NCBI RefSeq assembly: GCF_964194025.1
Contig: NC_134474.1
Coordinates: forward strand, 37,262,001-37,326,000
Direction of reading: 5' to 3'
DNA from: Convolutriloba macropyga
Lineage: Eukaryota
DNA: 64,000 nucleotides
Within the stretch, counting starts at the first letter, position 1; each line of letters opens with the position of its first letter. The position numbers were made by a program. Below are positions 57,001 through 60,000 of the stretch, one piece after another.

Positions 57001-60000
57001 TGTACGCATCCCAAAACAGTCTCTGTGAATCGCATACATGGAGACAAGTGAGCTGAATGGCTCTAAGATAACTTAATGCCCTTCGGGCGCTACCTGTTTA
57101 TCCCATTTTTGAGGACCATAAGTCAAATGGGTCAGACAAAAAATCGGTCACGCGAAAAATCGCATATAAAAAGTCCAATGGGACTAATATAATTGCTACA
57201 AACTTCGTTTGAGTGCAATTAAATGCTGTAACTTGATGCGTTCAACTGACCCAAATTTGACAAAACCTAATTCTAATTTTTTTGAATTTTACCGCGTAAG
57301 GCCGTGCCTCGAGGGCCATGGCTATGTCTCAGCGGCCCGTGGGACTTGATATTAATCTATCACAACCGAACGTGAGATCACAAGACACATTTTTCTCTTT
57401 CAGCTTAATTCGAATTCCAAAAAAATACGTTTATATTTATATCCTATTTTAAAACGTGGATCAAAACATCAATCAGCCAATCAGAAAACAGTATTAAAAT
57501 TTTCCCAGCAATAAAATATCTATATTTTGTACGTCTGCCGTTTTCACTAGCTCAGTTGCATCAATCCACAAACAGTGCCGTACATCATCGTTAAAATCGT
57601 CATATCAGAAGACTATTTTCGAGTCAAATCTGTACTTCCTGAATGATGTCAATCAGAAACATTTATAGCACACAATCCACCAGAAATCAACAATTGAGGA
57701 ATCAATAGAGAAAATCTTTTCAAAGCAAATTGAATTCAGATAACAACCGGCCTCATTTACGTGAGAAGACCGTGGTCCAACAAACTCATTAATAACAGGT
57801 CATTATTAAATAACCCCCAAAATTTATTAAATGCACAATTATTTTCCTTACTCAACACAGTAAAACCTAATGATCTACAGCTGACTCGCATGACAACGGC
57901 GCAATCATACTTTAAATTCCCGTTAAATTCTTCAACGAATCATGTAACTGTAAGAAGATTCACAGCACAAAAGGTCAGACAGGGATAACTCGCAATCACA
58001 CAGAATCAATCAATTTCCAAAGGTGTCATCATTTAGATACACAAAGATTCATATCGAATTTTTCTCCTAATGGTTGCATATGATGATCTATGATGAATAT
58101 ATGTACGCTCCTATTATGCTATATAAAACGTTTAGTGGTTAATAAGACATTACAAACTTGTCCATTCTAAGACGAGGTTGAACTAAGCATGGGCCACTCC
58201 TTCACACCAGGAATTTATGTCTCCTCAACAGTTTTAGTGAATCGCATACTTAGAGACTAGTAACCATGACCAAAGACGTTGTAATCTAAATTTAAAATAT
58301 ATGTCAGGAAATCAGAAGACCGTTGTGTGAATCAAGTCTCAGCTCCTGGGAAGAACAACTTGAATATTTTGAATGACATGGACTAGAACAGTTACCAGGT
58401 GACATAAAATCAGACAGGGATAACTTCGCAATCAAAGATAATCTTTTCTAACAGCGTCATCATTTCGTAAAGGTAATCATAATATGCATAAACAATCTTC
58501 TACCAACAACAGAGTCGACTATAGCACCATTTATTTAGCAGATTAAACCAAAAATAGCCGAAAATAGCCACCGTTGACGCGCCTGAAGCCCATCGTGATC
58601 GAAACATAAAAAAAGGAAGAGAGAAAATGACAGATTTTTTCCTAAAGTGTTTAATTCGGTGTGCAGTTTTAGTTAGATTCTCAAACTATACTTATTTCAG
58701 CATCTACACTGAAAGCTATTAAGCTTATTACAAATGATAGCTAGCAATGGCTCAAACGAACTTGGGTAATCTAAAGCACTGACTTAATGAACGGGCTTTA
58801 TCGTTTTATCCCGTTTTTGATTCTACTCTTTTGACACGGACCATATTCACTAGATTGCCCAATTCATTGAGTGAAAGCATTTTAAAAATACATTCGGTTG
58901 AAACAGTGAGTGAAGTAAGTCAAGAGTCAAACATGAAAATCGTGACTTTTGTAACGACAAACGTGATCAAAAGGTAAAGCAAATTTAGATGTAACAGAAG
59001 AGGTCCCGAAATACAATCCAAAGAAGTGAATGCAAAACATTTAACTACTGTATCTGACCAGCGGATGAAAATAAAAATGCCAGCCAAAAAGACAGAGTCT
59101 CAAAAGTGGTGAAACTAAAATAATCCAACTAAATGAACAAAAATATAAATATTTCTAAAGCTTCTGAAGCTCTAATAACCCACCCACAAGCCCTGAAAGG
59201 GGTTAATTAGCCACTAAAGCTACAAAAACTCCGAAAAAAACTGAAAAAACTAAAAAAAAAATTAATATATATTTACAAATTTCGCGAAATTGATATGTTC
59301 AAAACAATTTTTGTCTTTAGAATCTGTGCAGGAAGCCACCTGCCAGACCTAAAAAAAAGTCATTGGCCCTTAAAAACCAATAAACTCAGAAAATGACTTA
59401 AAAAATTTTTAAAAAAATGGCAAATTTTGTTGAAAAGTTTAAACTTTAAAATTCGTAAAATCTTAATATCTTCAGAACCATTTCATTGTCGCTAGTAATC
59501 CAATTTTAAGCTCAGAAAATTTTGAGTGGCCTAGAAAGATTGACAAATCCGAAATAGGATGAAAAATTTTCATCAGAAAATTTGAAAGAATTTTCACATT
59601 TATCAAATTTAAAAAATTTGTGATATTAAAAATTGAAAACCATTCCATTGCACCTATCAAATGTAATAATAACTGTTAAAACATTCTAAAAACTTCGAAA
59701 AAAAGCGAAAAAATAGTATCATTTTTCTTGTTTATGTTCGGAGTACGAAAACATATAGCTCATAAATGGTCACAAAAAGTACCTATATCTTGTTTGAAAA
59801 AGCTTTATCAACTTTGACAAACGTCAATTCAAGACTAATTGACAAAAATGACAAAAAAACGTAGAAAATTGCACTCTATGAGCAAAACAATTTTTTACAA
59901 AATCCAAATAACCGACTAATATTGGACGAATTGCACTTGAACAGCGCAAGGGCGCTCAATTCTATTGCAGCCTGCTTCAGACCTTTTTTGATTGATAGAG

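What the first reader, a model, noticed from the sequence alone, without database searches (positions are those of the whole stretch)
57735..58463. Singleton snoRNA paralogs in unrelated flanks suggest long-term selection on many copies
Seen: copies at 57975-58032 and 58410-58463 (also 39260, 47654, 47945, 48860, 49192, 51764) retain the exact guide, box D/D' and box C while their interiors and flanks are largely unalignable to the 160-bp family. Decayed U35-type relics sit nearby (~57735-57790, ~58303-58335). Inference: repeated rounds of amplification at this locus over a long period, with several lineages kept functional, rather than one recent accident.
Basis: partly seen in the sequence, partly recalled or inferred. 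Interest (0 to 1): 0.65.

Follow-up and report, generated by a model that had tools for sequence, protein, structure and literature searches.

The report
Two old snR38-type snoRNA gene copies
Two tiny methylation-guide RNA genes at the edge of a very large tandem snoRNA gene cluster have kept only their working motifs while everything around them has diverged, which is the ordinary signature of old duplicates retained by selection.

Summary
The core observation holds. On the minus strand, 58032..57975 (58 nt) and 58463..58410 (54 nt) are box C/D snoRNA-like genes. Each has a perfect box C (ATGATGA), the 12-nt guide AGTTATCCCTGT and box D (CTGA). Their interiors are 46% alike and their 200-300-nt flanks match nothing.

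The guide is the snR38 / SNORD1 / plant snoR38 guide for a conserved large-subunit rRNA G. Each copy is followed on the same strand by a decayed U35/snR73-type guide RNA. This is the R-then-U order of the 860- and 923-bp array units, so they are two old copies of one module, not independent insertions.

- Neither copy has an internal D' box.
- Of the six "also" coordinates, three are other families (two U35-type, one SNORD60-type).
- Three sit in a 415-bp segmental duplication.

Selection is supported for lineages, not for every copy. Only 31 of 50 guide-bearing copies are fully intact, and the youngest array amplifies copies without box C.

The pattern is already described for snoRNA paralogs. 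Expression, the organism and synteny stayed untested. This is a new member of a known kind, of modest interest.

The parts
57975..58032 (-). D1: 58-nt box C/D snoRNA-like gene of snR38/SNORD1/snoR38 guide type. It has box C ATGATGA at the 5' end and the guide AGTTATCCCTGT directly before box D CTGA at the 3' end.
   Evidence: nhmmer E 2e-11. Rfam snoR38 scores 25.0 bits against a gathering score of 45.
58410..58463 (-). D2: 54-nt box C/D snoRNA-like gene with the same guide and boxes as D1. Its interior is 17 of 37 identical to D1.
   Evidence: nhmmer E 1e-9. Rfam snoR38 scores 21.1 bits against 45.
58304..58343 (-). Decayed U35/snR73-type gene downstream of D2. The guide has 1 substitution and D' CTGA is kept. 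There is no canonical box C (nearest is GCTGAGA, displaced) and no box D.
   Evidence: nhmmer 58329-58307 E 7.6e-4. Rfam snoZ161_228 scores 17.9 bits against 45.
57736..57792 (-). Decayed U35/snR73-type gene downstream of D1. The guide has 1 substitution, D' is mutated to CTCA, and the box C-like motif is TAATGAG and displaced. Box D CTGA is kept.
   Evidence: nhmmer 57776-57726 E 7.9e-3.
53011..54984 (-). Tandem array with a 161-bp unit holding 12 R-type genes of 53-58 nt, with perfect internal D' (CTGA) and C' (TGATGA). In the core tree these are the closest relatives of D1 and D2.
55193..55256 (-). Single R-type copy. Its guide lacks the first A and its downstream flank is related to the 161-bp family. 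A further R relic lies at 55062-55109.
19690..37727 (-). Array of about 860-bp units (21 units aligned, mean identity 0.895). Each unit carries R (snR38-type), then U (U35-type), then T (SNORD60-type) genes.
40763..44958 (-). Array of 923-bp units, 95-100% identical, with the same R-U-T order. All 5 R copies lack box C.
39220..39628 (-). Block holding two R-type genes (D-box ends at 39260 and 39546). It is duplicated at 47617-48021 at 82.7% identity.
47617..48021 (-). Second copy of the two-gene block (D-box ends at 47654 and 47945).
51753..51820 (-). Its flanks match no other U copy.
48854..48918 (-). Its core is 93% identical over 45 nt to the copy at 40338-40382.
49184..49251 (-).
   Evidence: The Rfam SNORD60 match (22.8 bits against 42) is to the neighbouring copy at 49492-49575.

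Best explanation
D1 (58032..57975) and D2 (58463..58410) are two old paralogous genes for a compact box C/D snoRNA of the snR38 / SNORD1 / plant snoR38 guide family.

Inferred mode of action, from established knowledge of C/D snoRNPs:
- The RNA is cut out of a long minus-strand precursor that runs through the cluster.
- Boxes C and D fold into a kink-turn bound by Snu13, Nop56/58 and fibrillarin.
- The 12-nt guide pairs with the large-subunit rRNA stretch ACAGGGAUAACU.
- The G opposite the fifth guide nucleotide upstream of box D is 2'-O-methylated. This is the site published as yeast G2815 / human G4362.

Inferred history:
- Both copies descend from an ancestral module that carried an snR38-type gene followed by a U35-type gene. 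The 860-bp and 923-bp array units keep this same order.
- After an old local duplication, spacers, interiors and the neighbouring U35-type genes drifted or were overwritten by repeat insertions.
- Purifying selection kept box C, the guide and box D of both R copies.
- Later rounds of unequal crossing-over built the 161-, 773-, 860-, 923- and 1547-bp arrays around them.

Shown here: the motifs, their spacing, the motif-only conservation, the module order and the layered array ages. Inferred: transcription, processing, methylation activity and selection as the cause.
For: Motifs and gene model:
- Exact guide plus box D, with chance expectation 0.01 per window.
- Perfect box C at 57 and 53 nt from the 3' end, the same spacing class (53-60 nt) as 34 other copies.
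- The distal box C is conserved in every lineage although the sequence between it and the guide does not align. This fixes the gene model: guide at box D, total length 54-61 nt.

Guide identity:
- The Rfam snoR38 consensus contains the same 15 nt, GUUAUCCCUGUCUGA.
- Entamoeba Me-Eh-LSU-G2958 carries the same 12-nt guide and is tabulated as the homologue of yeast snR38 (G2815) and human snR38A (G4362) (PMC3542256, passages read).
- A predicted chicken C/D RNA, Ggn20, also carries the same 12-nt guide (PMC2770669, passage).

Motif-only conservation:
- D1 against D2 is 7 of 7 in box C, 15 of 15 in guide plus D, and 17 of 37 in the interior.
- Flanks are at the null level. At 46% per-site identity, 22 sites all identical by chance is about 4e-8 (my arithmetic).

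Internal control:
- In the same two units the U35-type genes have lost box C or box D and carry guide substitutions.
- Order and strand R-then-U match the array units.

Constraint inside the arrays:
- In the 860-bp array, diversity is 0.029 for the R guide plus D and 0.026 for the U guide plus D', against 0.110 in spacers. Block permutation fractions are 0.010 and 0.002.
- In the same array, variable columns are 21 of 74 in functional blocks against 311 of 689 in spacers, Fisher p 0.006.
- In the 161-bp array the guide plus D has zero diversity, and 0 of 77 spacer 15-nt blocks are as invariant.

Precedent: the chicken snoRNA survey says paralogues vary extensively while guiding regions are maintained by purifying selection (PMC2653536, passage).
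Against: - There is no expression, processing or methylation evidence of any kind.
- The window gives no Rfam match at gathering score (0 matches). The snoR38 model scores only 25.0 and 21.1 bits against 45, and it aligns the guide to its D' position, not to D.
- No terminal stem flanks boxes C and D. In 0 of 9 copies tested did the duplex beat 95% of shuffles; the lowest fraction was 0.08.
- D1 and D2 have no recognisable D' box and only a degenerate C' box.
- The organism's own rRNA is not in the window, so target pairing rests on the identity of the guide with published guides.
- With about 30 other intact copies of the same guide nearby (31 of 50 intact), selection on two extra copies would be expected to be weak. 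Persistence over a long time therefore needs an explanation, such as distinct expression or the arrays being much younger.
- The interior comparison rests on only 37 aligned columns.
Confidence: 0.75

Rival explanations
1. The motifs of D1 and D2 are kept identical not by selection on these copies but by occasional short-tract gene conversion from the many array copies. On this reading they may be non-functional passengers.
For: About 30 intact donors with identical guide and boxes lie within 5-40 kb on the same strand. The arrays show mosaic homogenisation, with best partners at lags of 1, 2, 4 and 12 units.
Against: - A conversion tract would carry contiguous donor sequence. The 37 columns between box C and the guide are only 26-46% identical to every other lineage.
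- No donor matches the D1 or D2 interiors.
- Box C and the guide are about 40 nt apart, so two separate tracts of 7-16 nt would be needed in each copy.
Confidence: 0.07
2. D1 and D2 are retroposed or otherwise transposed snoRNA copies dropped into unrelated sequence. Their unrelated flanks would then reflect insertion, not age.
For: The flanks are unrelated to all other copies. Dispersed-repeat fragments lie close by at 57015-57223, 57288-57371 and 57505-57551.
Against: - There is no A-rich tail after box D in either copy (sequences).
- Both lie on the strand of the cluster and inside it.
- Both are followed by a U35-type relic in the array order, which an RNA-mediated copy of a 55-nt snoRNA would not carry.
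- The cores are only about 75% identical to each other and to any possible source, so they are not recent copies.
Confidence: 0.05
3. The real gene is a longer, canonical snoR38-like RNA with the guide before box D', a box C just upstream of the guide and a box D further downstream. The distal ATGATGA would then be irrelevant.
For: - All described relatives that I saw place this guide at D' (the 5' element): Rfam consensus, Neurospora Nc CD23, chicken GGgCD64 and the Entamoeba entry listed as 13 nt (5').
- In the 161-bp family a perfect TGATGA abuts the guide.
Against: - D1 and D2 have only TGATTG before the guide. I read no CTGA in the stretch of about 50-80 nt downstream that was shown.
- The 860-bp family has no box C-like motif before the guide.
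- The distal ATGATGA is conserved at 53-60 nt in 36 of 50 copies and in every lineage, which is unexplained under this model.
Confidence: 0.05
4. D1 and D2 are dead relics whose motifs survive by chance or because they are younger than they look.
For: 19 of 50 copies in the cluster are visibly defective, so decay is common here.
Against: - All 22 functional positions are identical between two copies whose interiors are 46% identical and whose flanks are at the null level.
- The adjacent U35-type genes have decayed.
Confidence: 0.05

Closest known systems
snR38 (yeast) / SNORD1A-C, also called snR38A-C (human) / snoR38Y (Arabidopsis; Rfam RF00213 snoR38) / PFS7 (Plasmodium) / Me-Eh-LSU-G2958 (Entamoeba)
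   Same: - It has the same 12-nt antisense element immediately before a CUGA-type box, so the predicted target G in the large-subunit rRNA is the same.
- It is a box C/D architecture.
- It exists as several paralogues in one locus. Three human copies (snR38a/b/c) are listed in the chicken survey's table.
   Different: - Here the guide sits before the terminal box D, not before D'.
- The RNAs are only 54-61 nt, against 70-92 nt for the listed relatives.
- They lack a terminal stem.
- They score below the Rfam gathering score.
- Copy number is about 50 in 43 kb.
Intragenic (cis) duplication of vertebrate snoRNA paralogues, as described in the chicken snoRNA survey (PMC2653536)
   Same: Tandemly duplicated paralogues show extensive sequence change while guide regions and boxes are maintained. 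The authors read this as purifying selection (passage read).
   Different: - That paper describes one snoRNA per intron of a host gene and a few copies.
- Here no host-gene exons were identified.
- Units of 161 bp leave little room for an exon plus an intron, which suggests polycistronic processing (inference).
Reiterated polycistronic snoRNA clusters of trypanosomatids, Euglena and plants
   Same: Several different C/D snoRNA genes sit in a fixed order on one strand, with the whole unit repeated in tandem. The snoRNAs are short. Arabidopsis snoR38 and U35 are listed as 'clustered' in Table 4 of PMC2656528.
   Different: - I saw only a reference title for the trypanosomatid clusters, and the Euglena case is recalled, not read.
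- The organism here is unknown and has a CutC gene with a roughly 10-kb intron.
- The unit sizes and the particular R-U-T combination were not found in the papers searched.
Mammalian imprinted SNORD115 / SNORD116 tandem arrays
   Same: Tens of tandem units each carry a C/D snoRNA, and copies diverge and decay at the array edges. Tandemly repeated snoRNAs in imprinted regions are mentioned in PMC2653536; the rest is recalled.
   Different: Those are orphan snoRNAs without rRNA complementarity. The guides here are canonical, deeply conserved rRNA guides.

Membership tests
Box C/D snoRNA (general class) | Box C (RUGAUGA) near the 5' end | tested here: met
   ATGATGA is present in both D1 and D2, at 57 and 53 nt from the 3' end.
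Box C/D snoRNA (general class) | Box D (CUGA) near the 3' end | tested here: met
   CTGA directly follows the guide in both copies.
Box C/D snoRNA (general class) | Antisense element of at least 10 nt ending next to box D or D', so that the fifth nucleotide upstream pairs with the methylated residue | tested here: inconclusive
   The 12-nt element is identical to that of published snR38-type guides and to the Rfam consensus. The organism's own rRNA is not in the window, so pairing could not be checked directly.
Box C/D snoRNA (general class) | Short terminal stem bringing boxes C and D together (common but not universal) | tested here: not met
   In 0 of 9 copies did the flank duplex beat 95% of shuffles. 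The fractions were 0.15 for D1 and 0.81 for D2.
Box C/D snoRNA (general class) | Internal D' and C' boxes | tested here: not met
   D1 and D2 have no internal CTGA and only TGATTG before the guide. The 161-bp family has perfect CTGA and TGATGA.
Box C/D snoRNA (general class) | Stable RNA of the predicted size bound by fibrillarin, Nop56/58 and Snu13 | not testable with these tools
   No expression data are available.
Rfam RF00213 snoR38 | Score at or above the curated gathering score (45 bits) | tested here: not met
   Scores are 25.0 bits (D1) and 21.1 bits (D2). The whole window has 0 matches at gathering score.
Rfam RF00213 snoR38 | Guide placed between box C and box D' in the 5' half | tested here: not met
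   The guide abuts the terminal box D, and box C lies about 40 nt upstream of it.
snR38 / SNORD1 functional group (same rRNA target) | Antisense element for the G published as yeast G2815 / human G4362 | tested here: met
   The 12-mer is the same as in Entamoeba Me-Eh-LSU-G2958, which is tabulated as the snR38 / snR38A homologue, and as in the Rfam snoR38 consensus.
U35 / snR73 group (the two relics) | Intact guide ACGACGGTCTT next to D', plus boxes C and D | tested here: not met
   - The guide has 1 substitution in each relic.
- Relic 58304-58343 lacks boxes C and D.
- Relic 57736-57792 has D' mutated to CTCA and a displaced, imperfect box C.
- The family assignment of the intact copies rests on Plasmodium PFS17 carrying the same string and being tabulated as snR73/U35.

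The most novel reading that the evidence does not exclude
The two copies are the surviving seed genes of a 48-kb snoRNA factory. In it, more than 110 C/D units for three neighbouring sites of the large-subunit rRNA 3' region have been amplified in at least five rounds. By published numbering the sites are spaced 22 and 144 nt.

On this reading, copy number itself is under dosage selection and evolves by rDNA-like concerted evolution. D1 and D2 escape homogenisation and are kept individually, for instance because they are expressed at a different time or place. This would be a tandem array of SNORD115/116 scale made of canonical rRNA guides.
Probability: 0.15. Interest if true: 0.55.

Novelty: new member of a known kind. 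Interest (0 to 1): 0.3.

Why it matters
The finding itself is textbook snoRNA evolution: old paralogues that keep only box C, the guide and box D. It mainly serves as a clean annotation of two genes that Rfam thresholds miss.

It has some value for three reasons:
- It gives an internal contrast within the same 435-bp units, where one gene is kept and its neighbour has decayed.
- The snR38-type guide has moved to the box D position in a very compact RNA.
- The surrounding locus is unusually large for canonical rRNA guides, with about 50 snR38-type, about 35 U35-type and about 31 SNORD60-type units on one strand. This makes it a natural system for asking whether snoRNA copy number is selected or simply drifts by unequal crossing-over.

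Tried and rejected
- **Rfam at gathering score** on the whole window gave 0 matches. Permissive scans gave only sub-threshold leads, which I used as leads and not as membership.
- **Third gene in the D1/D2 units.** I looked for a SNORD60-type relic with a family HMM. The only hit was E 4.5 and overlapped D1 itself, so it was rejected. A possible third U relic at 57591-57613 has E 0.8 and is not significant.
- **Terminal stems:** none found.
- **tRNA-linked (pol III dicistronic) organisation:** no tRNA genes in the window.
- **Bacterial-type promoter and terminator scan** of 57.0-59.5 kb. It is irrelevant to a eukaryote and gave no enrichment (5 found against 8.3 expected).
- **Conserved 35-nt block** shared by 57015-57049 and 58227-58261. 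It continues into a dispersed repeat also present at 11272-11452 and 46381-46508, so it is not part of the snoRNA module.
- **Flank test for U and T singles** is confounded where neighbouring genes lie within 200 nt of each other (48889/49032/49337). Only the result for 51792 is usable.
- **Organism identification** was not possible. The only protein clue is a CutC exon about 50% identical to human CUTC. There is no eukaryotic genome collection. The prokaryote genome collection was not scanned because it cannot hold this locus.
- **Literature.** Searches for a described array of this kind returned nothing specific. A search for Drosophila gene names that I recalled returned 0 papers, so that lead was dropped. 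Supplements were closed and may hold snoRNA sequence tables that bear on the family assignments.
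Full report
**What the window is.** The window has no N and about 34% G+C. A CutC-family exon lies at 1022-1393 on the minus strand (Pfam E 2.3e-11). It is about half identical to human CUTC over 78-89 residues. A second ORF at 11828-12019 (minus strand) reads like the CutC N-terminus. It was read only; the two exons were not joined and only the first was searched. I take the source for a eukaryote with long introns, and not for human. Its identity could not be established. From 16 kb to the end, the plus strand is A-rich (AT skew 0.16-0.32), and the minus strand carries a very large set of box C/D snoRNA-like genes.

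**Checking the observation.** The guide plus box D, written on the plus strand as TCAGACAGGGATAACT, occurs 50 times at up to 2 mismatches, always in the same orientation. Chance expectation is 0.01. Thirty-nine are exact, among them 57975 and 58410. Read on the minus strand, both focal copies start with ATGATGA and end with AGTTATCCCTGT followed by CTGA.

BLAST of 57000-59000 against the whole window aligns D1 and D2 to each other over 69 nt only (75%). It aligns them to the 161-bp family over 57-62 nt only (74-77%). The other matches in that stretch are to dispersed repeats. In a local-alignment test, the 200-nt flanks of D1 and D2 score at most 19 against the flanks of any of the other 49 copies (null from shuffles: mean 14.4, 99th percentile 22). 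D1 against D2 directly gives:
- upstream flanks 12 (null 11.8 +/- 2.0);
- downstream 300 nt 12 (null 13.9 +/- 2.2);
- cores 31 (null 7.3 +/- 1.5; 0 of 1000 shuffles as high).

The central observation is therefore correct.

**Corrections to the observation.**
- Neither D1 nor D2 has an internal CTGA. They have box C, the guide and box D, but no D' and only a degenerate C' (TGATTG).
39260, 47654 and 47945 are the same guide type. 48860 and 51764 are the box-D ends of U35-type genes. 49192 is the box-D end of a SNORD60-type gene.
- 39260 with 39546, and 47654 with 47945, lie in one block duplicated at 82.7% identity over 415 bp. The upstream flank of 47945 also matches the 860-bp family.
- The U35-type gene at 51753-51820 does qualify as a singleton.

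**What the genes are.**
- *R type.* Rfam's snoR38 model (RF00213) is the best lead for the R type. It contains the same 15 nt, GUUAUCCCUGUCUGA, but scores only 21-25 bits against a gathering score of 45. Nothing in the window reaches any gathering score. The Entamoeba snoRNA Me-Eh-LSU-G2958 carries the same 12-mer. It is tabulated as the homologue of yeast snR38 (G2815), human snR38A (G4362), Plasmodium PFS7 and a trypanosome snoRNA (PMC3542256, passages). A predicted chicken C/D RNA carries the same 12-mer (PMC2770669, passage).
- *U type.* The guide ACGACGGTCTT plus CTGA has 35 matches at up to 2 mismatches, with chance 0.05. The same string occurs in Plasmodium PFS17, tabulated as snR73 / U35 / AtU35 (PMC2656528, passages).
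- *T type.* The guide CTGACACCTCTT plus CAGA has 31 matches at up to 3 mismatches. It resembles the SNORD60 consensus (22.8 bits against 42).

Tables for Neurospora and chicken place the U60/snR48, snR38 and U35/snR73 sites 22 and 144 nt apart in the large-subunit rRNA (PMC2780460; PMC2653536). The spacing of 22 nt is what the fifth-nucleotide rule gives for the T and R guides on the rRNA sequence as I recall it. That recalled sequence comes from no call.

**Gene model.** In all relatives that I saw, the snR38 guide precedes box D'. Here it precedes the terminal box D. A box C lies 53-60 nt before the end of box D in 36 of 50 copies (perfect TGATGA), and in 7 more with one mismatch. That distal box C is conserved in every lineage although the sequence between it and the guide does not align. 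In the sequence shown for D1, D2 and the 860-bp family I read no downstream box D that would support the canonical long model. In the 161-bp family the internal boxes are perfect: C, 22 nt, CTGA, one base, TGATGA, guide, CTGA. This gives a very compact double-box RNA of 53-58 nt. No copy has a terminal stem (0 of 9 tested).

**Architecture of the locus.** On the minus strand the order R, then U, then T repeats through:
- an array of about 860-bp units (21 units aligned, mean identity 0.895, range 0.83-0.97);
- a 923-bp family (95-100% identical);
- in part, a 773-bp family at the low-coordinate edge.

An R-only array of 161-bp units holds 12 copies. A 1547-bp array with a further SNORD60-like unit fills 60.3-64.0 kb. 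Within the 860-bp array the closest partner of a unit lies at lag 1, 2, 3-4 or even 12, which is the mosaic expected from repeated unequal exchange.

D1 and D2 each are followed on the same strand by a U-type relic (guide to guide 214 and 99 nt). They are therefore two copies of the same R-then-U module, not independent insertions. A maximum-likelihood tree of 45 near-full-length R cores was built on 70 columns; partial HMM hits such as the box-C-less copies were left out. It splits {12 copies of the 161-bp family, the 55196 copy, D1, D2} from {860-, 773-bp families and the two duplicated pairs} with SH-aLRT 88. With so few columns this is weak, but it fits the physical neighbourhood.

**Evidence on selection.** Between the seven lineage representatives, box C is 6-7 of 7 identical and guide plus box D is 15 of 15 in all 21 pairs. 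Interiors are 26-46% identical between unrelated lineages. D1 against D2 is 17 of 37. Conservation stops at the edge of the 12-nt guide.

The two U-type genes in the same units serve as an internal control. One has lost boxes C and D. The other has a mutated D' and a displaced, imperfect box C. Each has a guide substitution.

Inside the 860-bp array:
- Diversity is 0.029 (R guide plus D) and 0.026 (U guide plus D') against 0.110 in spacers, with block-permutation fractions of 0.010 and 0.002.
- Whole cores do not differ significantly from spacers: 0.079 for R (fraction 0.21), 0.075 for U (0.17) and 0.082 for T (0.26).
- By columns, 21 of 74 functional-block columns vary against 311 of 689 spacer columns (Fisher p 0.006).
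- Deviating cells are 2.8% in functional blocks, 6.8% in spacers and 6.0% in core interiors.

These array tests ignore the shared ancestry of units and should be read as indicative. In the 161-bp array the guide plus D is invariant in all units, and no spacer block of 15 nt (0 of 77) is as invariant.

**Evidence against "many copies kept functional".**
- Only 31 of 50 guide-bearing copies have an exact guide, an exact box D and a perfect box C.
- Eight have a guide substitution, 3 have a box D substitution, 7 have a one-mismatch box C and 7 have no box C.
- One further copy, at 35080-35150, has a one-base insertion in the guide.
- All 5 R copies of the youngest (923-bp) family lack box C. That round of amplification was therefore indifferent to R function.
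- The five copies at the 16-19.7 kb edge are all defective.

**Conclusion.** The best reading (confidence about 0.75) is that D1 and D2 are old local duplicates of an snR38-type methylation-guide gene, each kept by purifying selection, in a locus that has since been amplified several times. Rivals are short-tract conversion, retroposition, a longer canonical gene model and chance survival. Each runs into the unalignable interiors, the conserved module order, the conserved distal box C or the decayed neighbours.

[quoted passage not shown] My searches for a described array with these three guides found nothing specific. They were few, and supplements were closed, so I make no claim that the locus is undescribed.

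Expression, processing, methylation, the organism's rRNA sequence, the host transcript and synteny in related genomes all stayed unchecked.

Noticed in passing
window 40763-44958 (minus strand): The youngest array (923-bp units, 95-100% identical) carries R copies with an exact guide and box D but no box C in all 5 units. The U and T genes in the same units look intact, apart from a GTGGTGA or GTGCTGG box C in U. Amplification here cannot have been driven by R function.
   Followed up: partly
window 39917-39941, 16802-16823, 17578-17599, 18351-18372 (minus strand): This is a variant of the SNORD60-type gene in which the same antisense string is followed by GT and then CTGA, instead of CAGA directly. 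By the fifth-nucleotide rule it would methylate a G two positions upstream of the ordinary T-type target. I recall that yeast snR48 is credited with two sites 2 nt apart, but I did not verify this.
   Followed up: partly
window 60355-64000: A further tandem array with units of about 1466-1547 bp, about 85% identical. Each unit holds a C/D-like element (ATGATGT, CTGATACCTCTTGT, TTGA ... CTGA) distantly like the SNORD60 type. Sub-blocks of the unit recur at 55942-56643.
   Followed up: partly
window 16-64 kb overall: All three guide families in the locus aim at sites within about 166 nt of each other in the 3' region of the large-subunit rRNA (spacing 22 and 144 nt in the published tables seen). 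In chicken the three genes are listed in different host genes.
   Followed up: no
window 1022-1393 and 11828-12019 (minus strand): Two exons of a CutC-family (copper homeostasis) gene, separated by about 10.4 kb. The apparent start codon lies about 4 kb downstream of the last snoRNA-like copy on the same strand. The exons were not joined, and whether the snoRNA precursor reads into this gene is unknown.
   Followed up: partly
window 57015-57223, 46381-46508, 47037-47071, 11272-11452, 4131-4196; also 57288-57371 (inverted against 11-94) and 57505-57551 (against 364-410): Copies of dispersed repeats (76-88% identical) lie in the spacer downstream of D1 and in the CutC intron. Part of the 'unrelated flank' of D1 is therefore inserted repeat sequence. 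A 35-nt piece recurs at 58227-58261, inside the D2 unit.
   Followed up: partly
window 60926-61155 (plus strand): A long inverted repeat (arms 60947-61009 and 61078-61140, 87% complementary) gives a sub-threshold match to the plant miRNA family MIR7723 (43 bits against 200, E 3.6e-6). It is probably a hairpin-forming repeat element and no evidence of a miRNA.
   Followed up: no
window 35080-35150 (minus strand): One unit of the 860-bp array has a single-base insertion inside the R guide, so it was missed by the mismatch search and found only by the HMM.
   Followed up: yes
window 117-195 and 1629-3230: Tandem repeats of 16 bp, and of 30-32 bp (also 60-95 bp) built around the palindrome TCTGATCAGA. 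A weak endonuclease/reverse-transcriptase match (E 0.03) lies at 1572-1976, suggesting remnants of a non-LTR element.
   Followed up: no
window 19690-37727: The 860-bp array is a mosaic. Some units are most similar to their neighbour, others to the unit 2, 3-4 or 12 positions away (identity up to 0.97). This indicates repeated multi-unit duplications inside the array.
   Followed up: partly
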